DNA of 64,000 nt from Prevotellaceae bacterium (GTDB lineage Bacteria > Bacteroidota > Bacteroidia > Bacteroidales > UBA932), in the NCBI GenBank assembly GCA_031279695.1, contig JAITIA010000140.1, positions 12,935-76,934 of the forward strand. Direction: 5' to 3'. The translations under genes and the position numbers were made by a program. The first letter of the stretch is position 1. Every line of letters begins with the position of its first letter. This document shows, piece by piece, positions 325 through 18,838 of this stretch. The notes under the pieces are model-generated. The model had not been told where the DNA came from. It made no database searches and was given only the letters and a program-made list of their open reading frames with translations.

Positions 325-3300
325 TTAGTTATTCTTCTTTACAATAAGGTTGCATGAGCCAATCAATCCAGACGCTTGCAGTTTCGATTCGCTCTTATAA
401 TGATTAACAACTGTACGTGTTATTCTCTGCTCGTTGGGCAAACGACTATCGCCAATAAGTTTGTTTGCCCAGCTATTTGCAACCTCAATTTCCAGCAGGT
501 TAGTTCCCTTTTTCAATGCTTTATCGATACGCAAACGATAGGGCGCAGTCCATAAATTGCCAATTGATTTGCCGTTTAACTTGACGCGGGCAACAACCAT
601 CACATTTTCAAGGTCGATATACGCCTGTTCGTTTGGCAGTTTATCTATATCGAATGTTGTTTCGTAAGTTGCTGTTCCTGAAAAATAGCGAATACGCTCG
701 TCGCTCGATTTCGACCAATCTTCAAGTTTATTAAATGTAACCGGCTCTTCCGGCGCTCCTCTGCCTTTTTCAAATGTTACTTTCCATGGATTCGACAGTG
801 TCAGTAGAGTTTCGTACTTTACTGAATGTTGTTTTGTTGATATGTTTTCGTTTGCCTTATTACGGAACACAACAAATACGCTGCCATTTGCAGGCAAATC
901 AATTTGCACTGCGGTGGTCTGTTCCGATGCTTTACTGTAAACAGCAGGACTTATTTCGCGTGTAACCGGATTCCACAGTTCAACAGCCCTGCCGGCAACA
1001 CGAAATTCAGGCGTGAAATTTACAGGCTTGTCGCTTTGATTAGTTACAAAATATATATCGCCATCCTTCAACCGTCGGTGGATGTGCAGCGCAGGTGTTT
1101 TAGGCGATGAGGCAAGGCTGAAATCGGGCGGCAGGTTGAGCGACGCAAACACTTCATCAAGCGACGCATCTGCTGAGAATACCTGTCCGCGACCAACTTT
1201 GCGCACTTTTTCATTGCCGTCAGCCCAGAGTTTCGACGCCAGCGCCGCAACTTCGCCGTCAGCCTTTGGATAATTGACTAAACTTGGCGAGCGTTTCGGC
1301 TGCTGACCAACGATGGTCAATCCTTCGTTAACAAAATTGCTAATTCGCTGTAATACTTCCGGACGCATAGTTTCTACCGGAGGCAAAACGAGAACGTTGT
1401 AATGCATTCCATCAGGTAAGGCAAGTTTGCCGTCCTGCATTGAAGCCCGCGTCATCAAAACCTCTGCGTTGATAAAATCGTATGAATATCCGTGCGGCAG
1501 TTCCGGTGAAGTTATACCGGTCATCTTCGGGGCGTCTTCGCCAATAAAGTAAGCAACGTCGGCAACATAGTTTCCCTCCTGCAACATCAAGTTGCAGCTG
1601 CGAAGATAGTCGGTAAATCCATTCATTTTTCCGAACCATGTATTCTTACGGTTAAATTCCATGCCGAACCATGCATTGATACCCGGATTCCAGTCCTCAT
1701 AAGCCTGATGCTGATAAGTGCTTAGCAGAGTGGCATTGATACCTTCAATAAACGACCTGTCTATGTCGATTTTAAGAGTGCCCGGGTATAACCAGAAATA
1801 TGGACCGCCGCTGGTACACGATTCCGCCCACGTTTTGCGCTTACCATATATATGTGCCGATGACGAGGCTGCGCGGTTTTCAACTCCACGTCCCCAGCTG
1901 CCCGTCCAAAATTCTCCGCTAACTTCGTCCGACTGACCGCCGTATTGTAGAAATTCGCCCGGATAGCCCCAATGCCCGTAATTCTGTAACCACAGTGTGA
2001 GTCCATGTTCATTTGCCACTTTCTTCAATCCGGCAACATACCCGTATGAAATCATGTCGGCAACAAGGCGGCGCAAATCCCAGAGAAACCTGTCCGACAG
2101 TTCGCGACTGCCAACCACATTACCGTCGAACACCGGAAAGTATGGCACAGGGCTGTATCCATAAGTTTTGGTAAACCGTTCAAGCATACCGTCTGTCCAG
2201 TTTTGACCTCCCGTTTCGTAACTGTCGGCAACAACAAGACGGAAAGTACGTCGGTCTTTGGCAGGAATACGTCGCAAAACTTCGCCAATAAAAGCGTCGA
2301 AATGGCTTGCAACATGCTTGCTGTTCATCTTGTCCACCTCCAAACCCTTTCCTTCGGGCGATGCAGGCGCATTGGTAACACCGGTTGTTATCATTGCCAC
2401 ACGCGAAACAGTCCACAGTCCTTCGGGAGCATCCCATTCAATAATGCCCTCAGCCGACATTTTGTCGGTCAAATCAATAACACGTTCAACAGGAATATAC
2501 ATTTCCTGTATGGCTTCGGGCTGCACATCCCACATATATGAATCCCACGATGGTATGGCGTCCTGAAACATCTTGCCAAGCACCTTTTCAGGGTAGCGTT
2601 CCATATATGGAACAGTACTCAGTGTTATATCAGCCTCGCCAGCGCCATTATCGCCAAGCCACAGACGGAAATCGGAAGACTGCGCTTCCGGTATTGCACC
2701 AACCACAGGAGCATGACGTATAAAGCCTACATTAGGGTTATGATTGGTGCGGTTAATCATCATCTTTTTGATACTTCTATACTCCGAGCCTTCTTTAACT
2801 AACAGTTCTGCCGTTGTCCACATCCTTGCTGCCGTTGAATATATAAAGCTGCGCACGGTAACAGGGCGCTCAAAGTGAAAATCGACGGTGAGCGATTTTC
2901 CCTGTTCTTTATTCACCTTGATTGTTTTTTCCGTAATTGCGTTTTGCGGCAAAACCGGATACGCCACTACACGGACGTCCTGCGCCTCATTACCCGGACT
3001 TGCAAGTTTGAGGCTTACATGCTTGCCGCCCTCAACCTGCGCCGACGAAGAAGCCAGCCGTCGCATACTCTGTTGCGGCTTAATCCACGGACCACCGGAC
3101 TGACTCCATCCGGGAGAATTAAACATACCAACTTCGATGTCGAGTTCCGAAGCCTTCTTCATGGCAGTATGCAGCGCCGCCCACCATTCGTCGGACAACA
3201 GTTTAACCTTCCCGTAAGGAACGCCTTCGCCGCCAATGTTTCCGATAAACACCGAGCCTATTCCTGCGGCTTTTATTGCTTCGAGGTCGCGTTCGATACC

Positions 3301-3471
3301 TTCCTGCGAAACATTGTCGGACATCCAATACCAGAACATCCTCAGTCGGACACTGTCGTCAGGGTTGCGGAAGCCGTCCGCCAGCCTGTCGAACTCCGAT
3401 TGCCGGCATCCGCCCGTGAATAAACACAGCGCTACCAGCGATAATAAAATTGAGATTTGTTTTTTACACAT
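325..3471 (-). CDS. Large secreted glycoside hydrolase lipoprotein (1048 aa). The C-terminal sugar-binding jelly-roll resembles GH2/GH106-type domains; family uncertain.
   Basis: Long ORF with lipoprotein signal peptide MCKKQISILLSLVALCLFTGGC. C-terminal motif VKLNGKSIGNLWTAPYRLRIDKALKKGTNLLEIEVANSW is typical of GH2-type sugar-binding domains. Co-directional with GH43 and the giant gene. Confidence 0.7.
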   Translation of the reverse strand: MCKKQISILLSLVALCLFTGGCRQSEFDRLADGFRNPDDSVRLRMFWYWMSDNVSQEGIERDLEAIKAAGIGSVFIGNIGGEGVPYGKVKLLSDEWWAALHTAMKKASELDIEVGMFNSPGWSQSGGPWIKPQQSMRRLASSSAQVEGGKHVSLKLASPGNEAQDVRVVAYPVLPQNAITEKTIKVNKEQGKSLTVDFHFERPVTVRSFIYSTAARMWTTAELLVKEGSEYRSIKKMMINRTNHNPNVGFIRHAPVVGAIPEAQSSDFRLWLGDNGAGEADITLSTVPYMERYPEKVLGKMFQDAIPSWDSYMWDVQPEAIQEMYIPVERVIDLTDKMSAEGIIEWDAPEGLWTVSRVAMITTGVTNAPASPEGKGLEVDKMNSKHVASHFDAFIGEVLRRIPAKDRRTFRLVVADSYETGGQNWTDGMLERFTKTYGYSPVPYFPVFDGNVVGSRELSDRFLWDLRRLVADMISYGYVAGLKKVANEHGLTLWLQNYGHWGYPGEFLQYGGQSDEVSGEFWTGSWGRGVENRAASSSAHIYGKRKTWAESCTSGGPYFWLYPGTLKIDIDRSFIEGINATLLSTYQHQAYEDWNPGINAWFGMEFNRKNTWFGKMNGFTDYLRSCNLMLQEGNYVADVAYFIGEDAPKMTGITSPELPHGYSYDFINAEVLMTRASMQDGKLALPDGMHYNVLVLPPVETMRPEVLQRISNFVNEGLTIVGQQPKRSPSLVNYPKADGEVAALASKLWADGNEKVRKVGRGQVFSADASLDEVFASLNLPPDFSLASSPKTPALHIHRRLKDGDIYFVTNQSDKPVNFTPEFRVAGRAVELWNPVTREISPAVYSKASEQTTAVQIDLPANGSVFVVFRNKANENISTKQHSVKYETLLTLSNPWKVTFEKGRGAPEEPVTFNKLEDWSKSSDERIRYFSGTATYETTFDIDKLPNEQAYIDLENVMVVARVKLNGKSIGNLWTAPYRLRIDKALKKGTNLLEIEVANSWANKLIGDSRLPNEQRITRTVVNHYKSESKLQASGLIGSCNLIVKKNN

Positions 3472-3556
3472 ACTGTTATAATATTAAAAATTGTTTCGTT
3501 TGTATATACAGTTTATAGCCATTATCATTTTTATCTGTTAATATTGATTATTTGTT

Positions 3557-6500
3557 CTACTTTTTGTTGTCAGGTTTATGTGCTTTATATAAATTTTCCG
3601 TATCGACAATATGCCAGAAAAAATTCGTATCATATGCAACACGTTTTGCAAACTGTTCAGCCGCCATGTAAGCCATTTCCGCTTTATGTATAAACATAAT
3701 CTCCGACTTACGGGTATTTGTTTTATTTTGCAGTATTTGTTTCGCAGCCCTACGAGCTATCGTCCAGTTATGCTTCAACTGTTTCGCAGCCCTGCAAATA
3801 ACCGCCAAGTCATACCGAAAGCCATTCGTATTATTACGAATAGTTGTTGAATATAGCTTCAAGTAATTTGCAGCCTTACGCACATCAATAAAGTTGTGCA
3901 GAAACTGTGCCGCAAATTTACGAGCCTTTGGATTATCGCGCAGAAACTGTTTTGCAGCATTACGAACGTCTATCTCATCCTGCTGGAGGTATTCGGCAGA
4001 TTTACGAATCTTTGTCACATTAAGCAACTTTTGTCTCGCAATATTACTAATCTTAGTACTATAATATTCTTGATGAGATTCAAACTTGAGAGCCATTGCT
4101 TCGTTCTTTTCAAACTGTCGCACAAGTTGTAAAGCCTCATTTTGCTTTAGTTTTGCATGTTTTGTAGCACTGATAGCCTCTTCATGTTTATGCAGTAGTA
4201 TTTTAGAATAGAGAATAGTTTTCATTTTTTCTTTGGAGGCAACTATTAATCTCATGTTAGCCTTCTCAAGTTTATTATGAATGTTGTTTACAGATATGAT
4301 AATCTTCGACAGTTGTTGTATATATTCATTCGTAGCAATACGGAGCGTAAACATTTCTTGAAAAATTTCACACGTCAGCTCGTGAGCCTCCGCCTCATTC
4401 ATTTTCTTTTTATGCTGTGTTGTACCATCTTTCAACTTATCTTGAAAAACGCCAATGGTAATATGATTAACCTCTATTTCATTCTGCAGAATTTGTTGCG
4501 AACGGGCGAGAGTTATCTGCTCCTTATTTAACAGCGATTGCGCATGTTTGTTAGCCTTGTCGAGTTGCTGCATGGCATGTTCGGCGTCGATACTTATCCG
4601 CTTTTGTTTTGTTTTAACATTATCGACGTCCAATTCAGCAGTAATATTATTTTGCTGCGCCTGTTTATGAATGCTACTAATCTGTTTCTCGTATTGCTGC
4701 GCCTGTGAAAGCGCAATACGAGTCTGTTCCACGTAATGCTTTGCCTGTTCAAAAGCACTACAAGTTTCTGTCGATTGTTGCAAATTTTGATTTTCGGATA
4801 TGCTAATCGTCGGCAAGTTCAACTGATATTGTTTAATATCTGAATAAAACCTCTTTTTTACTTTAAGCACCTGTTTAACATCCATACATGTTTTCTCAAT
4901 ATTTTGCAGGTTTTGTTCCGCATTAATACTGTTCATCATACACATTAGCAGGTTTTGTTCCGCATTAATACGGTTGTCGGTACATTTATGAAATTTGTGC
5001 ATTGCTTCAATAAAAGCCTTTCCAATATGGTTTTTTAGTTTATTCACATTGTTGAAAGCAATTATCTCATCATTTTTAATTTGATTGGCAGTCGTGCGAG
5101 CCTTCTTCTCTTTAGTTTTATAATCTGCCAACTGTGTTATTGCTATCTGTTTTTTATGCATTAATGCTTTCAAATATTGACTAATATTATCTATATTTTG
5201 CTGCGCCTGTTCATCATCACTGTTAGTAATAAATTTATATAGATGCGGATTTTTTTCGTCAATGTCAGTCTCCGATTCATTCAGCTGCTGGGGCTCGGAC
5301 GCGACGTCAGTTTCCGGCTCATCCGGATGCTGCGGCTCGGCATCGTCGTCAGTTTCGGGTTCATTCTGCTGCTGCTGCTCGGCATCGTCGTTAATCTCCG
5401 ATTCATTCTGCTGTTGTGGCTCGGCATCGTCGTCAGTCTCCGATTCGTTCTGCTGCTGCGATTCGGCTGCGGCGTCAGTTTCCGACTCCTTTTGCTGCAG
5501 TTGTTTAGCCGAATTTTTAGTTTTTATTTTATTTTGCAGAGAATGGTTTTTATCGATACGAGCCTTTTCTGCCAATTGCAGTCTGTATTCAGCATCTATG
5601 GTATTATTCTCTGCATTTTGCAGATTAACTTCCGCATAAATACAATCGTGCGAACATTTTCTCAGTTCCCGTTCCGCATCAATACGAGCCTCAATACATT
5701 TTTGCAGTTTTTTAGTGGCTTTATCGAGATTTTTACCCCCATTCCGCTCTTCCATTACAACATCCATGCGAGCCTCCGCTTCATTATCTTTCAACTGTTT
5801 TGCGCGATTGCTTGCCTTTAATTCGTTTTGTTTAGCAACAAAAAGCTCAATGCGAGCCTTTTTTTCTACTCTCTTCGACCGTGCCACATTTGTTAGAATC
5901 TCTTTATGGTTATTCAGAAGATATTCGGTATCAGAGATATTCTCCGCCTCATTTTGCTGCGCTTGGGGTGCATCGGTACGAGTTTCCGCCTCATTTTGCT
6001 GCGCTTGGGGTGCATCGATACGAGTTTCCGCCTCATTTTGCTGCTTTTGGTCGTCATCGATACAAGTTTCCGCCTCATTTTGCTGTGCATGGTCGTCATC
6101 AATATGAGTTTCCGTCTCATTTTGCTGCACTTGGTCGTCATCGATACCGTCCTGCTCCAAGTTGTTATTTAGTTGTTCGATACCATATCTTTCCTTTTTC
6201 ATATATAGATGTATCGCAGATTTAAAATCCTGAGCCCGTATTTTATTTTTACGATAATGAGATATAAAGATTTCAATCTCTTCCAACGCCTTATTTGCCT
6301 TATTCGCAACCCTGTCAACCTTATCCATTCGTAGCTGCGCCTGTTCCACAACATAATTAGCCTCTTCTTCCTTATACTGCGCCTGTTGGGTAATAATGCA
6401 AGCGTCGGCAAAGTTGTTCAAAGCATGGTAAAAATCGGTGCGAGCATTTCTTATACATTGCCAAATATATTTAGTATTGATGCTGCTCTCCAATCCATAT

Positions 6501-9500
6501 TGCTTAATATATTGTGCAGTACGTACAGCCTCCAACAGGTTTTGCATTGAATTGATGGCAGCCATACGAGCATTTTGCTCGTTTTGCCGAGCGTCGTTGG
6601 CAAGAGCAATAGCCTGTTCATAGTTTTGCTGCGCCTGTTTTGCAAGGTTACGAATATTTGTTTCATTTTGCAGAATATCGTTCGTAAAACCGTCAATTTT
6701 AGTCTTATTCTGCATAATTTGTGACATATTTGCTATTCTTATCTTCCTGTTCATATCAAATTGTTTCTGATGTTTTCTTACCTTGTAAGTATTGATATTA
6801 CGTTGTTTCGCATCGATACCACCGTTAGTTTTAAGCATTAGATTAACTTCAGCAAACATACGTTCGTTCTCCTTGTTCAACTTATTAAGTTGAGTAGCAT
6901 AATCATCGTTCGATTTTTGCATCCAAGTCAGTTCGGTAAATATTCTAATGTTCGAGTCATTGATAAGTTCGAGTTTATACCCTATGATTTCCTCAATAGT
7001 ATTTTGCCGATACTGTTCTGCATCGATACGAGCCTGTGTTGCAATTTGCAGTTGCCGATTGGCGGCAATACAGTCCTGCTCGGTAATTAGCAGTTGCTGT
7101 TGCGCGTCGATACGAGCCTGCGTATATTCTTGCAGACGCGATTCGGCAATACCGACGTCTATATCCTCATCCTTTTTCTTTTGATTAAAAATATTTAAAG
7201 CGGCCTGCTCGTTGCGCTGCATATCCAAGATATGATTTAAAACATTCGATTTATTAATTTGCGCCTGTTCAGCAGCATTACGGGCTTCTGTCTCTATATG
7301 CAGAGCCTCATCAAAACTAAAGACAATTGTCAGATAGTTTTGTATAATGTGTTCGGTATTTTTGCTAATATAGATATGAGTTTGCTTAAACAGTTCGGTA
7401 TTTTTGTTAATGTCGAATATTTTTTGCAGGAAATGTTCGGCACTTATGCCAATCTCCGAATTTTGTTGCGATGACTGTTTTGCAGCAATTCCGGCTTTTT
7501 TCAATTGTTTTTTCTGCTCTTTTGCAGCAAGTTTAGTTTCCTGCACTTTTTGCTTTGTTTCTTTTACCTTAGTTAGCGCCTCCTGCACTTTTTGTTTTGT
7601 TTCGTCGGCAAGTATCCGCGCCTCCTTCACTTTTTGTTTTGTTTCGTCGGTAAGTATCCGCGCCTCTTTTATTTTTTGTTTCGACTCTTCGGCAAGTTTT
7701 TTTTCCTGATTATTCTTTTCGGCAAGTTCGGAAGTAAGGGTTTTTATCTCCGTATGTTTATTAACAATGTCCTGCGTAAGACTATTATCGACCGACTTGT
7801 TTTGCTTAACTGCGGATACAAGGCTGTTAAGCTCATTCTTTTTTTGCTTGATTTGTTGTTTCAGCGCTACAATCTCTTCATTTATTATCTGAATATCTTT
7901 GGAAGCACTACGAGCCTCCTTCATTTTTTGCGTAGCAAGTTCAGCTTCTAAGCGAGCCTTTTTTAAATTTTTCTTATCTTCATATTCCTTAATGAGAATA
8001 TCGTTCAATTCTTGCTGCGCCTGTTGCGCAATATTACAAGTCGGCGACTCTTGTTGCGGCGTCTGTTGAGCGGCGACAATAATCTCTGCCGCTTTTTGCA
8101 GATTTCGTTTAGCAATCATACGAGCCTGTTCCGCCCTTAGCAGCGGCTGTTCTTCATCTATACTGTCTTTTTCTTGTTGTTGCAAATCCTGTTCGACGGT
8201 AATGCTATCCTCTGGCTGTTGTTGCAAATCCTGTTCGACGGTAATACTATCCTCTGGCTGTTGTTGCAAATCCTGTTCGACGGTAATACTATCCTCTGGC
8301 TGTTGTTGCAAATCCTGTTCTACGGCAATGCTATCCTCTGGCTGTTGTTGCAAATCCTGTTCTACAGCAATACTATACTGTTCCTGTTGTTGCAGATTTT
8401 GTTCGATAGCCATACGCGCCTGTTTCGTTTGTTCTATTTGCTGTTCGGCGTCGCGACAAGCCTTTTTCGCTTCCAATAAATTCTGCATGGTAGCTTCACG
8501 ATACTCTTTCGATTGTTGCAGTCGCTGCTCCGCATCAACACGCAAGTCTTCCACATCTTTTAGATTCAGTAATTTCTGCATGAGTTTTCTTCCGCCGTCA
8601 TCCTTCGTTTGATTAGCAATATTACAGGCGTTCATTTCTTTATCATACATCTGTTTAAGCTGTGCGTGCATCTCATGATTTTTTTTACGGGCATATTCCG
8701 TAAGTATGCGCATCTTTGCTCTGTTTTGCATCGACTGTTCAACATCAATGTAATCCTGTTCTGCCTGTTGCAGGTTCTGTTTGGCAGCAATACTGTTCTG
8801 TTCTGCCTGTTGCAGGTTATCTTTGGCAGCAATACTGTTCTGTTCTGCCTGTTGCAGGTTATGTTTGGCAGCAATGATATCTTCTTTGCTGCTTTGCTTC
8901 ATTCGATTAACAGTATCGCAAGCCGTAATATATTTTGACTGAAAATGATTGTTCTCTGTTCGCGCATTGTTCTCGATGTGCATAGCACGTTCAACAAGTA
9001 TTCGAGCCTGTTCAATGTTTAAATTCGCCTGTTCCACAGCAATACTTGCCTCTTGCTCTTCTTGCTGTCGCATATTTGCAATTGTCAAATCAATGCTTGC
9101 TATTCGCATATTATGTTCGGCAATAATACGAGCCTCTTTAGCTCTTTCAAGTTTACGTTCAGCTTTAATACGCGCCTTTTCATTCTCTTTGAGCAACTGT
9201 ACGGCACGCATAATGTTTTCCGGTCTGGTTCCCTGCACTCGATTAAGAGCATTGCGAGCCTCTATCTCTTTATTTTTTGTCAGTTCAAGATTCGTTTGTC
9301 TATACTGCTCTCTTTGCTTAGCCTTTTCCACAAGTTGGCGAGCCTGTTCAATGTTTAGCTTCGCCTGTTCAACAGTAATACATATATCATCAATTTTTTG
9401 CTGATATTGTTTAACTTCGCCACGTGCCTTAGCCTCCTGTTTAAGTTTCTGTTCGGCAGCAAGACGAGCCTCTTCTTTTTGTTTTAGTTTCTGTTCGGAA

Positions 9501-12500
9501 GCAAGACGAGCGTCTTCCAACTCTTGCGGATTTTGCGCAGTAGCATTACGAGCGTCTTCCAACTCTTGCGGATTTTGTGCGGTAGCATTACGGGCGTCTT
9601 CCAACTCTTGCAGATTTTGTGCGGTAGCATTACGAGCGTCTTCCAACTCTTGCAGATTTTGTGCCGTAGCATTACGAGCGTCTTCCAACTCTTGCAGATT
9701 TTGCCCCGTAGCATTACGAGCGTCTTCCAACTCTTGCGGATTTTGTGTGGCAGCAATACGAGCCTCTTTCAACTTTTGCGAATTTTGTGCGGCAGCAATA
9801 CGAGCCTCTTTTAACTCTTGCAGATTTTGTTCGGAAGCAATACGGTCATTTTCCGCCAACTGAAGTTTCTGTTCGGAAGCGATAAATGCTTCTCTAACTT
9901 GTTTAAGGCGCTGTTCGGCAGCGATACGCTCTTCTCCCTCCTGTGTTAGACAGTGTTCGGAAGCGATACGCACGTCTTCTTTTAGTTTCACATACTCTTT
10001 GGCAGCAGCACGTACTGCTTTCTCGTATTTTATGTTCTGTTCGGAAGCGATACGCTTTTTCTCCGCTTGTTCCCGCTGTTGTTCTGCTACGATACGTTCC
10101 TCTTCCGCTTCTATGAGATTTTGTTCGGCAGCAATATGTTCTTCTTTCGCTTTTTGCAGATTTTGTTCGGCAACGATACGTTCCTCTGTAATTTTTTGCA
10201 AATCCTGTTTTGCAATAATACAAAAGGCTTCTGCTTCTTTAAGGTTTTTTTCAGCATCAAGATTTACTGTTAGATTTTTTGTCAGGGACTGGTTATACTC
10301 TATGCGAGCTTTATTCACGTTTTGCTTAGCTTGTTTAAATTCTGTGCGAGCCTTTTCCTCTTGTTGCAGTTTCAGTTCAACAGCGCCACGAGCCTTTTTC
10401 GCTTGTTTTAATTTCAGTTCAACAGCGCTGCGAGCCTTTTTCTCCTGTTTCAGTTTCAGTTTAACAGCACTACCATTCATATCTTCTATTTGTAGATTTT
10501 GCCCCGTAGCAATACGCTCTTTTTCTTTTTGTTTGAGATACTGTTCGGCAATAATACTCGCCTCTTCTTTCAGTTTGAGATACTGTTCGGTAGCTATGCG
10601 TTTTTTATCTTTGTTTTGTAGAGAATGTTCGGTAGCGATACGTTCTTCTTCTATTTGTTTGAGCTGCTGTTCGGCAGTAATGCGTTCTTCTTTCAGTTGT
10701 TTGAGATGCTGTTCGGCAACGCTACGAGCCGCTTCCACTTTTTGCAGATTTTGTTCGGCAACGCTACGAGCCTCTTCCGCTTTTTGCAGATTTTGTTTGG
10801 CAATGCTACTAACCTCTTTTAACTTTTGTAGATTTTGTTGGGCAACAATACGCTCCGCTTCCACTTTTTGCAGATTTTGTACCGCAGCGATACTCTCCTC
10901 TTTCGCTATTTGCAGTTCTTGTTCAACAGCGATACGCATATCTTTCTCTATTTGCAGCCTTTGTTTAGCAGTCAAATAAACTACTCTATTTTTTTTCGGA
11001 GACTGTTTACTCTTTATGTCAGCCTTATTTTCTGTTTCATTAAACTGTTTATACTTTAGTCCGGCTTGATTCTCTTTTTGCTGAGCATTTTTTACGTCTG
11101 TACGAGCCTTTTTTTCTTCTTCGAGCTTTAGCCCTAATTTTCTACGAGCCTTTCTTCCTTCTACGAGTTTTGATTTTAATTCACTACGAGCCTTTGATTC
11201 TTCTTTTAGTATTGATTTTAATTCACTACGAGCCTTTGATTCTTCTTCGAGTTTTAGTTTAACAATACTGCTATTTACTTCTTCTTTATGCAGATTTTGT
11301 TTGGCAAGGATACGAGCCTCTTTTAACTTTTGCAGATTTTGTGTGGCAAGGATACAAGCCTCTTTTAACTTTTGCAGATTTTGTGTGGCAATGCTACAAG
11401 CCTCTTCCGCTGTTTGCAGTTGCTGTTCGGCAGCAATACGCATCGCTTCCGACATTTGCAATTTCTTTTCCACAATCATACGAGCATAGTCCGTTTTATT
11501 TTGTGCCTGATTAAGATTTATTTGCATATCCTTCTCACTTTGCGTAGTGTTTTCTACAAGACGGCGAGCCTGTTCAACTATTATCGTCTGATATTCGAGC
11601 GCAATGCGAGCCTCTTTAATTTTTTGCAGATTTTGTTTGTAAATCGTGCGAGCCTCTTCTGCTTTTTGTTTTTCCAGTTCGTCGGCAATACGGGCATTTT
11701 CTTCTTCTTGCTGACGCTGTTCGACGGTAATACGAGCCTCTTCCCATTGTTGCATAGACTGTTCAGCAGCAATACGCGCCTGTTCAAAATTTTGCTGCGC
11801 CTGTTTGGTAGCAATACAAGCATTTTCAAGTTCTTGTTGAGCCTGTTCGCTTTTAGTGCAAGCCTTCGAATGTTTTTTCTCCGCATATTGCAGAGCAGAT
11901 CTAACCTTTAGTTTATTGTGTTTAGCGTCTGCATTCTCTTGTACATACTGCTCGTTGTTTTGCTTTTGCCGATGCAACAGGTTACTATTCTCTTCCAACT
12001 GTTGCAGAATTTCTTTTGCAAGTATGCTGTTCTCTCCCTCTTCCTGCACAACTCTTTGCGCACGATTGCGGCACTCCTCCTCTTTTTGCTGCAATTGTAC
12101 GGCAAGCATTCGTCCCTCGTTCATTGTTTTAGCCGTCTCTTCAACACGATTAGCCGCCTCCTGCAATTTTTGCTGAGCCTGTATAAGTTGAATACGAGCC
12201 TGCTCCTTATATTGCTGCAATTGATTAGCCGTATCAATAGCCTTTAACTCATCTTGCTGACACTTATTAAGACTGTTACTAAGTTCCTCCTTATTCTGAT
12301 TACAATTAACAAGAGTCATACGGGCATTTTCCACTTCTTGCTGACGTTGTTCGGCATCAATACGGGCATTGTCTTCTTCTTGCTGACGCTGTTCGGCATC
12401 AATACGGGCATTGTCTTCTTCTTTTCGACGCTGTTTGGCAGCAATACGTGCCTTTTCTTCTTCTTGCTGACGCTGTTCGGCAGCAATACGTGCCTTTTCT

Positions 12501-14104
12501 TCTTCTTTTCGACGCTGTTTGGCAGCAATACGTGCCTTTTCTTCTTCTTGCTGACGCTGTTTGGCAGCAATACGTGCCTTTTCTTCTTCTTGCTGACGCT
12601 GTTCGGCAGCAATACGTGCCTTTTCTTCTTCTTGTTTCTCTATTTTGGTGGCAATACGTATGTCATCAACTTTTTGTCGGGTCTGTTCGGCAATAATACG
12701 AGCCTCTTCCCATTTTTGTCGAGTCTGTTCAGCAGCAATACGAGCCTGGTCATAATTTTTATGCGCCTGTTTCTCAACAATATTATTCTGTTCCCATTGT
12801 TGCTGCGCCCGTTTGGTAGCACTACGAGCCTTTTCTAATTCTTGTTTCGCCTGTTCGCTTTTAGTGCAAGCCTTCGCATAGTTTTTTTCTAAATATTGCA
12901 CAGCGGATCTGATTTTTGTTCTATTGTGTTTAGCGTCTGCATTCTCCTGTGCATACTGCTCATTGTTTTGCGTATGCTGATGCAAAAGATTACTAATCTC
13001 TTCCAACTGTTGCAGAATTTCTTTTGCAAGTATGCTGTCCTCTCCCTCTTCCTGTATAACTCTTTGCGCACGATTGCGGCACTCCTCCTCTTTTTGCTGC
13101 AATTGTACCACAAGCATACGTTCCTCGTTCATTGGTTTATCCGTCTCTTTAACACGATTAACAGCATCCTGCAATTTTTGCTTCAGCTGTGTAAGATTAA
13201 TACGAGTCTGCTCCTTGTGTTGCTGAGATAGATTAACAGTATCAATAGCCTTTAACTCATCTTGCTTACACTGATTAAGACTGTTGCTAAGTTTCGCCTT
13301 ATTTTGACTACACTTTACAAGAGCAGTACGGGCATTTGCCGCTGCTTTTTGTCGTTGTTCGGCAATAATACGCGCCTTTTCTGCTTCTTTTTGTCGTTGT
13401 TCGGCAGCAATACGCACTTTTTCCACTGCTTGCTGCCTCTGTTCGGCAGCAATACGCGCCTCTTTATCTTTTTTATATTTCTGTTCGGCAGCAATACGCG
13501 CCTCTTCTTTTTTTGTCAGTTTCTGTTCGGCAACAATATTAGTTTTTTTCGACTGTTGCGTACTTTGTTCGGCAACAATGTTAGTTTTTTTCGACTGTTG
13601 CTGACGTTGTTCGGCAACAATACTATCAATTTCTGCTTGTTGCTGACGTTGTTCGGCAACAATACTATCAACTTCTGTTTGTTGCATACTTTGTTCGGTA
13701 GCAATACTATCAACTTCTGCTTGTTGCGTACTTTGTTCGGCAACAATACTATCAACTTCTGCTTGTTGCGTACTTTGTTCTGCAACAATACTATCAACTT
13801 CTGCTTGTTGCGTACTTTGTTCTGCAACAATACTATCAACTTCTGTTTGTTGCGTACTTTGTTCGGCAACAATACTATCAACTTCTGCTTGTTGCATACT
13901 TTGTTCGGCAACAATACTATCAACTTCTGCTTGTTGCGTACTTTGTTCAGCAACAATATTTATCTCTTCCTGTTCTTTGAGTTGTTGCTCCGACTCAATA
14001 CGAATAGATTCATTATTATGCTGCAGCGAATTGTCATTTTTTGTTTCTTTCCTAAAAATATTATTCCAGAAACCACGCTTACTACTTATTTTTATAAACT
14101 TCAT
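3557..14104 (-). CDS. Giant (3515 aa) tandem-repeat coiled-coil protein made of about 250 degenerate 14-residue repeats (consensus ARIAAEQxLQxxEE). No signal peptide or TM segment. Function unknown.
   Basis: Uninterrupted 10,548-nt ORF. Translation is dominated by A/E/Q/R/K/I/L with hydrophobic residues spaced i, i+7 (two heptads per 14-mer). The N-terminus MKFIKISSKRGFWNNIFRKE is polar. Start codon lies 4 nt after the GH43 stop. Opposite-strand ORFs are repeat artefacts. Confidence 0.85.
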   Translation of the reverse strand: MKFIKISSKRGFWNNIFRKETKNDNSLQHNNESIRIESEQQLKEQEEINIVAEQSTQQAEVDSIVAEQSMQQAEVDSIVAEQSTQQTEVDSIVAEQSTQQAEVDSIVAEQSTQQAEVDSIVAEQSTQQAEVDSIATEQSMQQTEVDSIVAEQRQQQAEIDSIVAEQRQQQSKKTNIVAEQSTQQSKKTNIVAEQKLTKKEEARIAAEQKYKKDKEARIAAEQRQQAVEKVRIAAEQRQKEAEKARIIAEQRQKAAANARTALVKCSQNKAKLSNSLNQCKQDELKAIDTVNLSQQHKEQTRINLTQLKQKLQDAVNRVKETDKPMNEERMLVVQLQQKEEECRNRAQRVIQEEGEDSILAKEILQQLEEISNLLHQHTQNNEQYAQENADAKHNRTKIRSAVQYLEKNYAKACTKSEQAKQELEKARSATKRAQQQWEQNNIVEKQAHKNYDQARIAAEQTRQKWEEARIIAEQTRQKVDDIRIATKIEKQEEEKARIAAEQRQQEEEKARIAAKQRQQEEEKARIAAKQRRKEEEKARIAAEQRQQEEEKARIAAKQRRKEEDNARIDAEQRQQEEDNARIDAEQRQQEVENARMTLVNCNQNKEELSNSLNKCQQDELKAIDTANQLQQYKEQARIQLIQAQQKLQEAANRVEETAKTMNEGRMLAVQLQQKEEECRNRAQRVVQEEGENSILAKEILQQLEENSNLLHRQKQNNEQYVQENADAKHNKLKVRSALQYAEKKHSKACTKSEQAQQELENACIATKQAQQNFEQARIAAEQSMQQWEEARITVEQRQQEEENARIADELEKQKAEEARTIYKQNLQKIKEARIALEYQTIIVEQARRLVENTTQSEKDMQINLNQAQNKTDYARMIVEKKLQMSEAMRIAAEQQLQTAEEACSIATQNLQKLKEACILATQNLQKLKEARILAKQNLHKEEVNSSIVKLKLEEESKARSELKSILKEESKARSELKSKLVEGRKARRKLGLKLEEEKKARTDVKNAQQKENQAGLKYKQFNETENKADIKSKQSPKKNRVVYLTAKQRLQIEKDMRIAVEQELQIAKEESIAAVQNLQKVEAERIVAQQNLQKLKEVSSIAKQNLQKAEEARSVAEQNLQKVEAARSVAEQHLKQLKEERITAEQQLKQIEEERIATEHSLQNKDKKRIATEQYLKLKEEASIIAEQYLKQKEKERIATGQNLQIEDMNGSAVKLKLKQEKKARSAVELKLKQAKKARGAVELKLQQEEKARTEFKQAKQNVNKARIEYNQSLTKNLTVNLDAEKNLKEAEAFCIIAKQDLQKITEERIVAEQNLQKAKEEHIAAEQNLIEAEEERIVAEQQREQAEKKRIASEQNIKYEKAVRAAAKEYVKLKEDVRIASEHCLTQEGEERIAAEQRLKQVREAFIASEQKLQLAENDRIASEQNLQELKEARIAAAQNSQKLKEARIAATQNPQELEDARNATGQNLQELEDARNATAQNLQELEDARNATAQNLQELEDARNATAQNPQELEDARNATAQNPQELEDARLASEQKLKQKEEARLAAEQKLKQEAKARGEVKQYQQKIDDICITVEQAKLNIEQARQLVEKAKQREQYRQTNLELTKNKEIEARNALNRVQGTRPENIMRAVQLLKENEKARIKAERKLERAKEARIIAEHNMRIASIDLTIANMRQQEEQEASIAVEQANLNIEQARILVERAMHIENNARTENNHFQSKYITACDTVNRMKQSSKEDIIAAKHNLQQAEQNSIAAKDNLQQAEQNSIAAKQNLQQAEQDYIDVEQSMQNRAKMRILTEYARKKNHEMHAQLKQMYDKEMNACNIANQTKDDGGRKLMQKLLNLKDVEDLRVDAEQRLQQSKEYREATMQNLLEAKKACRDAEQQIEQTKQARMAIEQNLQQQEQYSIAVEQDLQQQPEDSIAVEQDLQQQPEDSITVEQDLQQQPEDSITVEQDLQQQPEDSITVEQDLQQQEKDSIDEEQPLLRAEQARMIAKRNLQKAAEIIVAAQQTPQQESPTCNIAQQAQQELNDILIKEYEDKKNLKKARLEAELATQKMKEARSASKDIQIINEEIVALKQQIKQKKNELNSLVSAVKQNKSVDNSLTQDIVNKHTEIKTLTSELAEKNNQEKKLAEESKQKIKEARILTDETKQKVKEARILADETKQKVQEALTKVKETKQKVQETKLAAKEQKKQLKKAGIAAKQSSQQNSEIGISAEHFLQKIFDINKNTELFKQTHIYISKNTEHIIQNYLTIVFSFDEALHIETEARNAAEQAQINKSNVLNHILDMQRNEQAALNIFNQKKKDEDIDVGIAESRLQEYTQARIDAQQQLLITEQDCIAANRQLQIATQARIDAEQYRQNTIEEIIGYKLELINDSNIRIFTELTWMQKSNDDYATQLNKLNKENERMFAEVNLMLKTNGGIDAKQRNINTYKVRKHQKQFDMNRKIRIANMSQIMQNKTKIDGFTNDILQNETNIRNLAKQAQQNYEQAIALANDARQNEQNARMAAINSMQNLLEAVRTAQYIKQYGLESSINTKYIWQCIRNARTDFYHALNNFADACIITQQAQYKEEEANYVVEQAQLRMDKVDRVANKANKALEEIEIFISHYRKNKIRAQDFKSAIHLYMKKERYGIEQLNNNLEQDGIDDDQVQQNETETHIDDDHAQQNEAETCIDDDQKQQNEAETRIDAPQAQQNEAETRTDAPQAQQNEAENISDTEYLLNNHKEILTNVARSKRVEKKARIELFVAKQNELKASNRAKQLKDNEAEARMDVVMEERNGGKNLDKATKKLQKCIEARIDAERELRKCSHDCIYAEVNLQNAENNTIDAEYRLQLAEKARIDKNHSLQNKIKTKNSAKQLQQKESETDAAAESQQQNESETDDDAEPQQQNESEINDDAEQQQQNEPETDDDAEPQHPDEPETDVASEPQQLNESETDIDEKNPHLYKFITNSDDEQAQQNIDNISQYLKALMHKKQIAITQLADYKTKEKKARTTANQIKNDEIIAFNNVNKLKNHIGKAFIEAMHKFHKCTDNRINAEQNLLMCMMNSINAEQNLQNIEKTCMDVKQVLKVKKRFYSDIKQYQLNLPTISISENQNLQQSTETCSAFEQAKHYVEQTRIALSQAQQYEKQISSIHKQAQQNNITAELDVDNVKTKQKRISIDAEHAMQQLDKANKHAQSLLNKEQITLARSQQILQNEIEVNHITIGVFQDKLKDGTTQHKKKMNEAEAHELTCEIFQEMFTLRIATNEYIQQLSKIIISVNNIHNKLEKANMRLIVASKEKMKTILYSKILLHKHEEAISATKHAKLKQNEALQLVRQFEKNEAMALKFESHQEYYSTKISNIARQKLLNVTKIRKSAEYLQQDEIDVRNAAKQFLRDNPKARKFAAQFLHNFIDVRKAANYLKLYSTTIRNNTNGFRYDLAVICRAAKQLKHNWTIARRAAKQILQNKTNTRKSEIMFIHKAEMAYMAAEQFAKRVAYDTNFFWHIVDTENLYKAHKPDNKK

Positions 14105-14108
14105 ATTT

Positions 14109-15134
14109 CTATTTAATCTTCCGACGTTTTACGCCGGTTTTAGTTATCTTGACTGGAATAATTCGTCCATTTTCATCAAACTCCATCCTGTCGATACATG
14201 TTACACGATGATTGCCATGTCGGTCGCCAATCGGTCGGCGATGATATACTATATAATATGTATCGGTATCGGGCAGGTGAATAACAGAATGATGTCCTGC
14301 GCCTGTGGCGACAGCAGAGTCCTGTTGCAGTATTTTTCCCTCCCGATGAAATGGACCATAAGGTGAATCGGCAATTGCGTATGCAACAGAATAGTCGGGA
14401 CCTGTCCAACCACCCTCGCTCCACATAAAATAGTACTTGCCATTACGCTTAAACATAAAAGGACCTTCGACATAGTTTTGTGGAGTAATTTCCTTATATA
14501 TAGAGCCGTCATCGTGAGGTATCAGCCCGTCGAACTTGTCGTTCAGTCGTACAATATTGCAATGACTCCAACCGCCATAATACATATAATAATTGCCGTC
14601 GTCGTCGAGAAACACAAACTGGTCGATAGGTTGTGCGCCATTCACAATATTGTTGATAAGAGGTTTACCGAGCAAATCACGGTATCGTCCCTGCGGCTTG
14701 TCGGCAATTGCAACGCCTATACCGCCAACTTCGCCCTCATGCACATCGTTGGCAGCAAAGAAGAGATAGTACTTGTTGTTTTTGCGTATAACAGAAGGCG
14801 CCCACATCGCCATACGAGCCCATCGAACCTCAGTGGTGTCGATAATCCGTTCGTGTTTTTGCCACTGCACCAAGTCGGGCGATGAAAAGCAGTCGAAAAA
14901 TACCTGTTTTTCAAAATTGTCGCTAAATGTTGGAAAAATCCAGTAATTTTTGTCATATATTATACCCTCAGGGTCGGCATACCAGCCGTTGAAAACCGGA
15001 TTTCCACTGAAAGGAGCGGTTTTTGTTGCTGTACAGGATGCGAGGAGCGCCGCTGCTGCAACTGTTACTGTAAATGCTGTAAATCTGCTGTTTATGCAGT
15101 CTAAATTCAATTTACAAATGTTAAAAATCTTCAT
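14109..15134 (-). CDS. Glycoside hydrolase family 43 (beta-xylosidase/arabinofuranosidase-like), lipoprotein
   Basis: Signal peptide with lipobox (LLASCTA). Canonical GH43 N-terminal motif NPVFNGWYADPEGIIYDKNYWIFPT and five-bladed propeller-like W/D-rich sequence. Confidence 0.85.
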   Translation of the reverse strand: MKIFNICKLNLDCINSRFTAFTVTVAAAALLASCTATKTAPFSGNPVFNGWYADPEGIIYDKNYWIFPTFSDNFEKQVFFDCFSSPDLVQWQKHERIIDTTEVRWARMAMWAPSVIRKNNKYYLFFAANDVHEGEVGGIGVAIADKPQGRYRDLLGKPLINNIVNGAQPIDQFVFLDDDGNYYMYYGGWSHCNIVRLNDKFDGLIPHDDGSIYKEITPQNYVEGPFMFKRNGKYYFMWSEGGWTGPDYSVAYAIADSPYGPFHREGKILQQDSAVATGAGHHSVIHLPDTDTYYIVYHRRPIGDRHGNHRVTCIDRMEFDENGRIIPVKITKTGVKRRKIK

Positions 15135-15241
15135 ATTTTTCGTAAAATTTACTAATTATTTGCCGACAAAGATATGGAGAATTTTGAATATGACAAAAAT
15201 GCTGTTATTTGGTACTTTATATGGTATTCATAAAAAATATG

Positions 15242-15249
15242 TACCTTTG
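15242..15249 (+). promoter_or_regulatory. Bacteroidetes sigmaA -7 box TACCTTTG upstream of miaB
   Basis: Matches TAnnTTTG consensus 20 nt upstream of the miaB ATG. Lies in the divergent intergenic region with GH43. Confidence 0.5.
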
Positions 15250-15268
15250 CACCCTTGAAATATAAAAT

Positions 15269-16630: not shown

Positions 16631-16685
16631 AAATCGACCGAAAATGTTCAAAAAAAAACACATTTTTTGCCGTCGATTTTTTTCA
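16630..16685 (+). terminator. Rho-independent terminator after miaB
   Basis: Imperfect long hairpin (aaaatcgaccgaaaatgt ... acattttttgccgtcgatttt) followed by a T-run. Confidence 0.5.
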
Positions 16686-16729
16686 TTTGAAAATCTTTAA
16701 TATCATTGTGCAAAAATTTTTATTGTATT

Positions 16730-17107: not shown

Positions 17108-17629
17108 TCATTCGTCCTTCTCGAACCGTACCGTCGAACAGAAAACGGCTGAGGATTTTTGGAACAGATCTTGCCGTCTGTTCCCAATCGGGTGAGGTCT
17201 GTTTGTTGCACAGGTAACAAACAGATACACCTGTATTGGCTTGCTATTGACATGTTTGAAGGCGTCGAAGTTTGATTGAGTCTGATTGTCCTATGGGATG
17301 TAAATGTCTGCGTATGATACTGTTCTACCGAGAGATGCATCTCTACGATATGCAAAAACCGCAGCCGCCATGCCAACGGCGCATCCCTGCGAGCGTTTTG
17401 TATTCATATTATAATAGTATAGTATTGTACCGACGTTATAGCACCTCAATCTTTTTTTCAACCTTTTTTGACACTGCCGGTGGACAAGGTCCATTGCGGG
17501 ATACACTCGAAAAATTTTTTTTACAAAAAATGTCATTTTTATTACACATAAAATCAGGGAGATACAAAAAAATCTGCAAATTTTTTACAAAAAATGACAA
17601 ACATTTTTTTGTAATTGAAAAAAAAGCCA

Positions 17630-18834: not shown

Positions 18835-18838
18835 AAAA

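What the first reader, a model, noticed from the sequence alone, without database searches (positions are those of the whole stretch)
325..15134. Giant coiled-coil gene is tightly embedded between two secreted glycoside-hydrolase genes
GH43 (15134..14109), the giant ORF (14104..3557) and a 1048-aa GH lipoprotein (3471..325) are co-directional. The gaps are 4 nt and 85 nt, which suggests one transcription unit sharing the divergent promoter region with miaB. Coupling a cytoplasmic-looking mega-protein with two exported CAZymes is unexpected. There is no SusC/SusD pair. Either the giant protein is exported by some non-Sec route as a cell-surface fibre that presents the hydrolases, or the three were fused into one operon by chance.
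Basis: partly seen in the sequence, partly recalled or inferred. Interest (0 to 1): 0.55.

Follow-up and report, generated by a model that had tools for sequence, protein, structure and literature searches.

The report
Orphan giant repeat gene between hydrolases
A 10.5-kb gene with no detectable relatives, made of about 250 in-phase copies of one 42-base unit and predicted to encode a very long helical rod, sits between two sugar-cleaving enzyme genes; it is probably transcribed with them, but nothing links its function to theirs.

Summary
GH43 (15134..14109), a 3515-aa ORF (14104..3557) and a 1048-aa hydrolase (3471..325, family GH106) are co-directional, with gaps of 4 and 85 nt.

Sequence features fit one transcription unit. 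A Bacteroidetes-type promoter lies upstream of GH43. Neither junction has a promoter motif or a terminator.

The functional reading is not supported:
- The giant protein has no signal peptide, no T9SS C-terminal domain and no docking modules.
- Both hydrolases are self-sufficient lipoproteins.
- The neighbourhood is found nowhere else. Synteny with the closest relative (88% nt) breaks inside the miaB-GH43 spacer.

The notable object is the giant gene itself. About 98% of it is a single array of ~250 units of 14 codons (consensus ARIAAEQNQQKEEE) with no phase break. Its hydropathy periodicity is exactly 3.50 residues over all 3515 aa, and it is predicted all-helical.

No homologue was found in two database searches covering parts of the protein, or in Pfam, NCBIfam, PHROGs, PADLOC or PDB. 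The reading frame is under selection: 0 stops against ~133 expected, and dN/dS is about 0.6.

Best reading: a lineage-specific, cytoplasmic coiled-coil fibre gene that grew by 42-bp amplification, placed by chance inside a small hydrolase gene cluster.

The parts
15269..16630 (+). miaB (tRNA methylthiotransferase), the divergent neighbour. It is not part of the unit.
   Evidence: UPF0004 + Radical_SAM + TRAM domains. The block shared with the closest relative (88% nt) is only window 15234-17187.
15167..15197 (-). Bacteroidetes-type promoter candidate: -33 TTTG (15197-15194), a 19-nt spacer, then -7 TATCTTTG (15174-15167). It lies 33 nt upstream of the GH43 ATG.
   Evidence: It is the only TAnnTTTG with an upstream TTTG on the - strand between positions 1 and 15400. 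The consensus itself comes from the published Bacteroides promoter literature, cited from my own knowledge.
14109..15134 (-). GH43 glycoside hydrolase, a predicted lipoprotein (lipobox LLAS|C at Cys34).
   Evidence: PF04616 E 4e-54 over residues 44-323. PDB relatives 3QZ4 and 4NOV. Translation.
14006..14104 (-). Giant ORF, unique N-terminal 33 residues (MKFIKISSKRGFWNNIFRK...). Basic and aromatic, with no hydrophobic signal sequence. Contains the motif FWNNIF.
3632..14005 (-). Giant ORF, a single array of ~247 units of 42 nt (14 aa) in one unbroken register. DNA consensus GCTCGTATTGCTGCCGAACAGAATCAGCAAAAAGAGGAAGAG, which encodes ARIAAEQNQQKEEE.
   Evidence: Every tandem-repeat row but two overlapping minor ones (periods 21 and 22) has period 42, 84 or 126. 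Register table. Position profile. 178 of 250 units individually beat the 99th percentile of codon-shuffled units, and the C-terminal third matches the profile only at shift 0. Periodicity of 3.50 and 14.00 residues. AlphaFold2 predicts all-helix.
3557..3631 (-). Giant ORF, unique C-terminal 24 residues (DTNFFWHIVDTENLYKAHKPDNKK) plus the stop codon. Contains the motif FFWHIV.
   Evidence: No Por_Secre_tail (T9SS) or other Pfam hit.
3472..3556 (-). 85-nt AT-rich spacer between the giant ORF and GH106. No promoter motif and no terminator were found.
325..3471 (-). GH106 alpha-L-rhamnosidase-family lipoprotein (GH106a). Beyond the window start it is followed by DUF6261 and a 66%-identical paralogue, GH106b.
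   Evidence: PF17132 E 1e-212. NF045579 jelly-roll domain. PDB relatives 6Q2F and 5MQM. Downstream genes in L082.

Best explanation
Shown:
- GH43, the giant ORF and GH106a lie head to tail, with a Bacteroidetes-type promoter only in front of GH43 and no recognisable terminator at the junctions. They are therefore most likely co-transcribed. The 4-nt gap allows translational coupling of the first two genes.
- The giant gene is a real, selected coding sequence. Almost all of it (aa 34-3491) derives from one 42-bp unit amplified about 250 times in frame, with older, more decayed units towards the 3' end.

Inferred:
- The product is a continuous alpha-helical protein whose hydrophobic pattern repeats every 3.50 residues with no stutter. 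That describes a coiled-coil rod up to ~0.5 um long (3458 residues at ~0.148 nm per residue).
- It has an Ala-rich core stripe at unit positions 1, 5, 8 and 12. A second stripe, I/Q/Q/E at positions 3, 7, 10 and 14, could mediate lateral bundling.
- With no export signal of any known kind, it stays in the cytoplasm as a fibrous structural or scaffolding protein, analogous to the coiled-coil-rich cytoskeletal proteins of other bacteria.
- Its position between two lipoprotein hydrolases reflects where the gene grew or landed in this one lineage. It does not indicate a functional partnership.
For: Gene order, gaps and families.

Transcription signals: promoter motif only upstream of GH43, and no terminator or stable hairpin at either junction.

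Repeat architecture:
- Every tandem-repeat row but two overlapping minor ones (periods 21 and 22) has period 42, 84 or 126.
- The register is unbroken from aa 34 to 3491.
- 178 of 250 units match one 42-nt consensus, and the C-terminal third is in phase only at shift 0.

Coding selection:
- 0 in-frame stops, against 133 +/- 11 expected if the same 4351 differences from consensus were placed at random.
- 65-348 stops in the other five frames.
- dN/dS is 0.59-0.62 between internal paralogous segments.

Helical, coiled-coil periodicity:
- Spectral peak at 3.50 residues.
- AlphaFold2 gives helices of 160+ residues, with pLDDT 77 for aa 1-420, and an all-helical C-terminus at low confidence.

No export or docking features and no known family.

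Orphan status:
- 0 hits for aa 2316-3515 in 1.84 billion cluster representatives.
- 0 hits for the last 547 aa in 5.8 billion proteins.
- Only two low-complexity look-alikes for the canonical repeats.

No conserved neighbourhood:
- 80 GH43 loci from GTDB species lack miaB and the giant gene within the fetched flanks of up to 10 kb. Only one (L072) has a GH106-like match, at 34% identity and on the opposite strand.
- 80 metagenome miaB loci lack all three genes.
- The relatives with 92% and 72-74% identical miaB have other DNA next to miaB.
- The synteny break is at window 15234.
Against: - No transcript or protein data exist, so co-transcription and expression rest on motif scans alone.
- The core stripe is weakly hydrophobic (mostly Ala). 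The best-conserved Ile lies outside it, so a canonical two-stranded coiled coil is not assured. Single-helix or higher-order arrangements remain possible.
- Codon usage differs from core genes (GC3 0.36 against 0.52). That fits a founder effect of the amplified unit, but also foreign origin or low expression.
- The tight 4-nt spacing, and a second case downstream where a non-secreted helical-looking protein (DUF6261) precedes a GH106 by 4 nt, could hint at a real link.
- Close relatives are barely sampled, so 'not conserved' partly reflects a lack of data.
- The middle 7.9 kb of the gene rests on one assembly.
Confidence: 0.55

Rival explanations
1. The giant protein is exported by an unrecognised route and forms a cell-surface fibre that displays or organises the two hydrolases.
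For: Tight co-directional packing, and probably a single promoter. Both enzymes are exported lipoproteins. Short aromatic motifs at both ends of the rod (FWNNIF, FFWHIV) could be attachment points. DUF6261 followed by GH106b repeats the pattern of an unknown protein followed by a GH106.
Against: There is no Sec, Tat or lipoprotein signal, no T9SS C-terminal domain and no RTX-type features. No transporter genes lie nearby. The hydrolases have no spare domains that could dock. The association is seen in no other genome.
Confidence: 0.1
2. The giant ORF is functionless. On this view it is a runaway 42-bp satellite that happens to stay open, or a long-read assembly artefact that inflates a much shorter gene.
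For: No homologue exists anywhere. dN/dS is only moderately below 1. Codon usage is atypical. The middle 7.9 kb is not covered by the independent short-read assembly, which breaks at the first array. Unequal crossing-over between 42-nt units by itself keeps length changes in frame.
Against: There are 0 stops where ~133 are expected from the observed divergence, and 1519 codons are one step from a stop. Conservation is position-specific (0.26-1.57 bits per column), and second codon positions are the best conserved. Phase is kept even in the old, decayed 3' third, where recombination between units should no longer operate. Both ends are confirmed at 100% identity. A noisy assembly would introduce frameshifts rather than remove them.
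Confidence: 0.12
3. The three genes are separately transcribed. The giant gene or GH106a would use non-consensus or internal promoters (for example near 3920), and adjacency would say nothing about regulation.
For: A TAAATTTG box lies at 3920, 449 nt upstream of the GH106a start, inside the giant ORF. An 85-nt AT-rich gap is long enough for a promoter. Transcribing 10.5 kb to reach GH106a is costly. Bacteroidetes promoters often deviate from the consensus.
Against: The box at 3920 has no -33 element, and there is no motif in the gap itself. No terminator-like structure follows GH43 or the giant ORF. A 4-nt gap leaves no room for a promoter between GH43 and the giant gene outside coding sequence.
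Confidence: 0.2
4. The giant gene is foreign DNA from a phage or mobile element, inserted into a pre-existing GH43-GH106 operon.
For: GC3 and codon preferences differ from the flanking and core genes. The gene is absent from relatives. The locus sits next to a rearrangement breakpoint.
Against: No integrase, transposase or flanking repeats are present. There is no hit in PHROGs or PADLOC. A viral-contig pattern scan found nothing, although that probe was very strict. The gaps of 4 and 85 nt leave no insertion scars. The codon bias is just that of the amplified founder unit.
Confidence: 0.08

Closest known systems
Bacterial coiled-coil-rich cytoskeletal proteins (crescentin, Streptomyces FilP/Scy, Helicobacter Ccrp proteins, Mycoplasma HMW2); comparison from my own knowledge
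   Same: They are cytoplasmic, lack an export signal, are almost entirely alpha-helical with heptad-type periodicity and have no enzymatic domain. They are presumed to act as self-assembling rods or filaments.
   Different: No sequence similarity was detected. This protein is 2.5-8 times longer and is built from a single 14-residue unit repeated ~250 times with no stutter or linker. The known proteins have segmented rods. The core here is Ala-rich rather than Leu/Ile-rich. Filament formation is untested.
Giant repetitive surface proteins of bacteria (for example Giant1-5 of Apilactobacillus kunkeei, PMC12863079; SprB and RTX adhesins from my own knowledge)
   Same: The gene is of 10-kb scale and was built by in-frame tandem amplification. 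It is lineage-restricted and breaks short-read assemblies.
   Different: Those proteins carry signal peptides or secretion domains and consist of beta-rich Ig-like or other folded repeats of 80-100+ residues. This one has no export signal and a 14-residue helical unit. Only the title and abstract of PMC12863079 were seen.
Antiparallel coiled-coil hairpins (SMC arms, colicin E3 receptor domain, Vipp1/PspA, PI3K iSH2)
   Same: These were the best Foldseek matches of the AlphaFold2 model of aa 1-420, which folds two ~165-residue helices back on each other.
   Different: All matches have E >= 0.06 and TM-scores (query-normalised) of 0.14-0.34. They are generic long-helix similarity. There are no ATPase heads, hinge or other flanking domains. 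The fold-back at residues 177-190 has pLDDT below 50 and may be a monomer-modelling artefact.
Bacteroidetes polysaccharide utilisation loci (PULs)
   Same: Co-directional lipoprotein glycoside hydrolases likely act on related plant glycans (arabinose/xylose and rhamnose side chains) behind a Bacteroidetes promoter.
   Different: No SusC/SusD pair and no sensor or regulator lies within the window or the 8.8 kb beyond it. PULs are not known to contain a giant cytoplasmic repeat protein (my own knowledge).
P0001, a 236-aa zinc-ribbon protein with seven ARIAAEQAQIEEE repeats (ENA metagenome)
   Same: It has the same ARIAAEQ heptapeptide in a tandem helical repeat.
   Different: Its period is 13 residues, not 14, and it is a small protein with C-terminal zinc ribbons. 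The E-value of 4e-10 is driven by low-complexity repeats. This is most likely convergence, not homology.

Membership tests
Polysaccharide utilisation locus (PUL) | Adjacent SusC-like TonB-dependent transporter (~1000 aa) and SusD-like lipoprotein | tested here: not met
   Apart from the giant ORF and GH106a, the largest ORF in the 64-kb window is 523 aa. Downstream are DUF6261, GH106b, sbcD and sbcC. Pfam on 23 window proteins gave no SusC or SusD.
Type IX secretion cargo | N-terminal Sec signal peptide plus a conserved C-terminal sorting domain (Por_Secre_tail, PF18962 / TIGR04183) | tested here: not met
   The N-terminus MKFIKISSKRGFWNNIFRKETKND has no hydrophobic core. There are no Pfam or NCBIfam hits at E <= 1 or 0.1 respectively. 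The C-terminus is helical repeat followed by 24 residues.
RTX / type I secreted giant adhesins | Gly/Asp-rich nonapeptide repeats, a C-terminal secretion signal and neighbouring ABC, MFP and TolC genes | tested here: not met
   Gly is 0.9% of residues. No family hit was found. No transporter genes are nearby.
Cellulosome-like scaffold (cohesin-dockerin) | Cohesin modules on the scaffold and dockerin modules on the enzymes | tested here: not met
   The giant has no Pfam hit. The GH43 domain spans residues 44-323 of 341. GH106a has only GH106 and jelly-roll domains.
Coiled-coil fibrous protein (generic class) | Hydrophobic periodicity of 3.5 residues in a long helix with few helix breakers | tested here: met
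   The strongest spectral peak is at 3.50 residues, with power 996 against at most 81 in shuffles. Pro+Gly is 1.6%. AlphaFold2 gives helices of 160+ residues.
Coiled-coil fibrous protein (generic class) | Actual oligomerisation into a supercoiled bundle or filament | not testable with these tools
   Only monomer prediction was available. The best a/d stripe (positions 1, 5, 8, 12) is mainly Ala, with mean hydropathy about +0.25.
SMC / Rad50-type long coiled-coil ATPases | N- and C-terminal ABC ATPase head halves and a central hinge | tested here: not met
   There is no SMC_N, AAA or hinge hit. The similarity is structural only and generic.
Bacterial lipoprotein (GH43 and GH106a) | Signal peptide ending in a lipobox with an invariant Cys | tested here: met
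   Read from the translations: GH43 ...AAAALLAS-C34 and GH106a ...LCLFTGG-C22. No dedicated predictor was available.
Operon (single transcription unit) | One promoter, no internal terminator and a continuous transcript | tested here: inconclusive
   Motif scans agree with a single unit. No transcript data are available.

The most novel reading that the evidence does not exclude
The gene was born recently and in place, by runaway in-frame amplification of a single 42-bp unit inside a hydrolase operon. It now encodes a stutter-free, roughly half-micron coiled-coil rod with matching aromatic motifs (FWNNIF and FFWHIV) at its two ends. Such a rod would be a cell-scale tether, ruler or cytoskeletal cable of a kind not described in Bacteroidota. 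It would also be a clean natural example of de novo origin of a giant structural protein.
Probability: 0.2. Interest if true: 0.75.

Novelty: new variant of a known kind. Interest (0 to 1): 0.45.

Why it matters
As an operon puzzle the finding matters little. The adjacency is specific to one poorly sampled Bacteroidales lineage, labelled 'Prevotellaceae bacterium' MAG, and nothing ties the giant protein to glycan breakdown.

The gene itself is more interesting, for three reasons:
- It shows how a 10.5-kb, selected coding sequence can arise from one 14-codon unit.
- It would be an unusually long coiled-coil segment with no register break.
- It has no detectable relative in the searches that could be run, which covered parts of the protein against very large sequence collections.

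If expressed, it gives cell biologists a candidate cytoskeletal element in a phylum where few are known. It gives protein evolutionists a dated series of repeat units, from fresh arrays at 90%+ identity down to decayed 3' units at ~45-50% identity to consensus, for studying how new giant proteins grow.

It is also a practical warning. Short-read assemblies break exactly at this gene, so similar genes are probably under-counted in metagenome-assembled genomes.

Tried and rejected
- The full-length homologue search timed out. I replaced it with three partial searches. Residues ~608-2315 were never searched directly.
- Family libraries gave nothing for the giant protein: Pfam, NCBIfam, PHROGs, PADLOC and PDB sequences. 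The one NCBIfam line (UspA, 16 bits against a cut-off of 202) is noise.
- The Foldseek search of the better AlphaFold2 model returned only generic helical hairpins. I did not search with the low-confidence C-terminal model.
- I tested whether the giant gene is an expanded DUF6261 paralogue, since DUF6261 precedes the second GH106. There is no similarity (best E = 9). No paralogue of the giant gene exists elsewhere in the window.
- Synteny tests used GH43 in GTDB species genomes and miaB in metagenomes. No shared neighbourhood was found.
- Closest miaB relatives: in the three contigs of the nearest relative (92% identical miaB), the assemblies end 330-490 nt upstream of miaB in non-coding, repeat-bearing DNA. 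In the 72-74% identical relatives, other genes flank miaB.
- A viral-contig scan with a double-ARIAAEQ DNA pattern found nothing. The same pattern matches the window only once, so it is an insensitive test.
- Exact-sequence look-ups of the giant protein failed, as did a look-up of the NCBI version of GH43.
- Paper searches for the run accession, DUF6261, 14-residue repeats and coiled-coil-rich proteins in Bacteroidetes gave nothing usable.
- ORFs on the opposite strand inside the giant gene (up to 326 aa) are dismissed as by-products of the repeat. Those frames carry 65-184 stops.

Full report
**Observation**

The window holds three co-directional ORFs on the - strand at exactly the stated coordinates:
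- 15134..14109, 341 aa
- 14104..3557, 3515 aa
- 3471..325, 1048 aa

The gaps between them are 4 nt and 85 nt.

The first ORF is a single-domain GH43 enzyme (PF04616, E 4e-54, residues 44-323). Its nearest solved relatives are 3QZ4 and the xylosidase/arabinofuranosidase Xsa43E.

The third ORF is a GH106 alpha-L-rhamnosidase-family enzyme (PF17132, E 1e-212) with the usual C-terminal jelly-roll domain. Its nearest solved relatives are 6Q2F and BT0986.

Both enzymes begin with lipoprotein-type signals...LLASC in GH43 and ...FTGGC in GH106. miaB is divergent at 15269..16630.

No SusC-sized ORF exists in the window. A short-read contig from the same sample (L082) extends past the window start. It shows that GH106a is followed by a DUF6261 gene, a 66%-identical second GH106, then sbcD and sbcC.

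**Is it one transcription unit?**

On the - strand between positions 1 and 15400 there are five exact Bacteroidetes -7 boxes (TAnnTTTG). Only one has a -33 TTTG at the right distance. It is TTTG (15197-15194), a 19-nt spacer, then TATCTTTG (15174-15167), 33 nt upstream of the GH43 start.

No box lies between GH43 and the giant ORF, or in the 85-nt spacer. The nearest one upstream of GH106a is at 3920, inside the giant ORF, and it lacks a -33 element.

No terminator-like hairpin maps to either junction. The RNA around the 85-nt spacer folds no better than shuffled sequence (z = +1.3).

Co-transcription is therefore the most economical reading. It remains an inference from motif scans.

**Anatomy of the giant gene**

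Tandem Repeats Finder reports 31 rows. Every row but two overlapping minor ones (periods 21 and 22) has a period of 42, 84 or 126 nt.

Writing the protein in rows of 14 shows one register running from residue 34 to about 3491, roughly 247 units, with no insertion or deletion out of phase.

The column profile is A-R-I-A-A-E-Q-x-L-Q-(N/K/Q)-x-E-E, with 0.26-1.57 bits per column. The DNA consensus is GCTCGTATTGCTGCCGAACAGAATCAGCAAAAAGAGGAAGAG.

Of 250 units, 178 individually exceed the 99th percentile of codon-shuffled controls. Identity to the consensus falls from about 0.6-0.76 in the first two thirds to 0.45-0.57 in the last third. Even there, the profile of the first two thirds scores positive only at phase shift 0.

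Several arrays are young, with 89-96% matching units. One 184-codon block has been duplicated 336 codons (24 units) downstream.

Only 33 N-terminal and 24 C-terminal residues lie outside the array. Each of these end pieces carries the protein's only F[FW]x(1-3)I[FV] motif: FWNNIF at residues 12-17 and FFWHIV at residues 3495-3500.

**Is it a real coding sequence?**

The frame has no internal stop in 3515 codons, of which 1519 are one substitution from a stop.

Placing the observed 4351 differences from consensus at random gives 133 +/- 11 in-frame stops, with a minimum of 107 in 300 trials. The other five frames contain 65-348 stops.

dN/dS between the duplicated 184-codon blocks is 0.59. Over 56 adjacent unit pairs of 70-99% identity it is 0.62.

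Second codon positions are the best conserved. That fits selection for residue class rather than for exact sequence.

The two ends of the gene (window 13919-14104 and 3557-5972) are confirmed at 100% identity by independent short-read contigs. The middle 7.9 kb is not covered, because that assembly breaks at the first array.

**Likely structure**

Q, E, A and K make up 47% of residues, and Pro+Gly only 1.6%.

The hydropathy power spectrum, summed coherently over all 3515 residues, peaks at exactly 3.50 residues (power 996) and at 14.00 residues (963). The maximum in shuffles is 81. A period of 3.5 is the signature of left-handed coiled coils, and here it holds with no stutter.

The best a/d stripe is unit positions 1, 5, 8 and 12, mostly Ala. 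The most conserved hydrophobic residue, Ile at position 3, lies on a second stripe (positions 3, 7, 10, 14 = I, Q, Q, E) on the opposite face. This is my inference, and it suggests more than one helix-helix interface.

AlphaFold2 without an alignment gave two results:
- Residues 1-420 form three helices (10-176, 191-353, 358-419), with mean pLDDT 77.
- Residues 3100-3515 are all-helical but low-confidence, with pLDDT 52.

Foldseek against the PDB returned only generic antiparallel helical hairpins (Vipp1, colicin E3, SMC arms, PI3K iSH2). None had E <= 0.001.

Fully extended as a coiled coil, the array would span about 0.5 um. This takes ~0.148 nm per residue from established coiled-coil geometry and is an inference.

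**Relatives of the giant gene**

No family model matches the giant protein in Pfam (E <= 1), NCBIfam, PHROGs or PADLOC. No PDB sequence matches either.

The homologue searches gave:
- The last 547 residues: no hit at E <= 1e-3 among 5.8 billion proteins.
- Residues 2316-3515: no hit among 1.84 billion cluster representatives read exhaustively by HMMER.
- The canonical repeats (residues 426-607): only two small low-complexity proteins. One has a 13-residue ARIAAEQAQIEEE repeat and zinc ribbons, which is most likely convergence.

The full-length search timed out, so residues ~608-2315 were not searched directly.

**Conservation of the neighbourhood**

Cluster look-ups show that the flanking proteins come from a 76.9-kb contig of an NCBI 'MAG: Prevotellaceae bacterium'. 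The accessions are MDR2424433, MDR2424434 and MDR2424435 on one side and MDR2424437 on the other, so the giant is presumably MDR2424436 (inference).

The neighbourhood is conserved nowhere that could be searched:
- 80 GH43 loci from GTDB species (62-76% identity in the locus search, up to 79% in the local re-alignment; Tannerella, Parabacteroides and others) have no miaB and no giant gene within the fetched flanks of up to 10 kb. Only one (L072) has a GH106-like match, at 34% identity and on the opposite strand.
- 80 metagenome miaB loci have none of the three genes.
- The closest relative has a 92% identical miaB protein, and the shared DNA is 88% identical. That shared DNA covers only window 15234-17187. 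The break lies inside the miaB-GH43 spacer, and three separate assemblies end in non-coding, repeat-bearing DNA there.
- Relatives with 72-74% identical miaB have other genes on both sides of miaB.

**Interpretation**

The adjacency and probable co-transcription are real.
- The giant protein has no export signal.
- Neither the giant protein nor the enzymes carry docking modules.
- Both enzymes are independently anchored lipoproteins.
- The arrangement is not conserved in any relative examined.

The best-supported picture is a lineage-specific, cytoplasmic, coiled-coil-type fibrous protein. Its gene grew by in-frame amplification of one 42-bp unit and happens to lie within a small non-PUL hydrolase cluster (GH43, GH106, DUF6261, GH106).

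Its atypical codon usage (GC3 0.36 against 0.52 in core genes) matches the codons of the founder unit. It cannot separate in-place birth from acquisition.

The rival readings keep small probabilities: a surface fibre, a functionless satellite or assembly artefact, separate promoters, and a mobile origin. Each is set out with its refuting test in the Rival explanations section.

**Verdict**

As an operon puzzle, the finding is ordinary. The giant gene itself is an unusual orphan: about 250 in-phase copies of one unit, a 3.50-residue periodicity with no break, and no relative found in the searches run. I file it as a new variant of the known class of giant repetitive or coiled-coil bacterial proteins, with moderate interest.

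Noticed in passing
L082:5907-9831 (DNA just beyond the window start, same strand as the cluster): A 260-aa DUF6261 gene with no signal peptide sits 4 nt upstream of a second GH106 lipoprotein gene that is 66% identical to GH106a. This repeats the pattern of a non-secreted unknown protein followed by a GH106. DUF6261 shows no similarity to the giant protein (best E = 9).
   Followed up: partly
window 16706-17107 (+): A small ORF (122-133 aa as called) with no Pfam hit follows miaB here. It also follows miaB in three of the four relatives whose miaB contigs were fetched (L163-L167, and same-strain L001), but not in L168. It looks like a frequently conserved miaB partner of unknown function.
   Followed up: partly
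L163:1-451, L164:1-493, L165:1-332 (upstream of miaB in the closest relative): This is non-coding DNA with a G/C-rich palindrome-like stretch (GCCCCCCTGCCCCCCCTCAAGGGGG) and short CTTATAACAAC-type tandem repeats. Three separate metagenome assemblies all end here. It coincides with the synteny break against window 15234.
   Followed up: no
window 63404-63482 (-): An Rfam group II intron catalytic-domain match (RF00029, 54 bits) lies next to an AAA_14/DUF4143 ATPase ORF (62100-63221). No reverse-transcriptase ORF was checked.
   Followed up: no
window 45208-46704 (-): A 498-aa ORF with no Pfam hit contains a strongly acidic Asp/Tyr-rich tract (DDDDEYDDYDYDDDEDAYD).
   Followed up: no
window 42807-45027 (+) and 60721-61902 (-): Three paralogous thioredoxin-like/AhpC-TSA proteins lie within 20 kb. 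Two of them carry DUF4369, and the first also carries DUF5106.
   Followed up: no
window 3557-14104 (-) compared with the rest of the window: The giant gene prefers T-ending codons (GCT, CGT, ATT, AAT, GAT, AGT) and has GC3 of 0.36, against 0.52 in eight core genes and 0.47 in the two hydrolases. This matches the codons of the 42-nt founder unit.
   Followed up: partly
P0001 (ENA metagenome protein, 236 aa): An unrelated small zinc-ribbon protein carries seven tandem ARIAAEQAQIEEE units with a period of 13 residues. The ARIAAEQ heptapeptide therefore recurs independently in helical repeats.
   Followed up: partly
window 17853-29690 (+): Ribosomal-protein genes (S10 at 17853-18158, by the call on the same-strain contig L001; S3 at 21365-22129) and SecY (28347-29690) begin about 750 nt after the small ORF that follows miaB. 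In the closest relative, miaB and that ORF are instead followed by a 234-aa ORF and a PLD-domain gene, so both sides of the miaB block are rearranged between the two genomes.
   Followed up: partly
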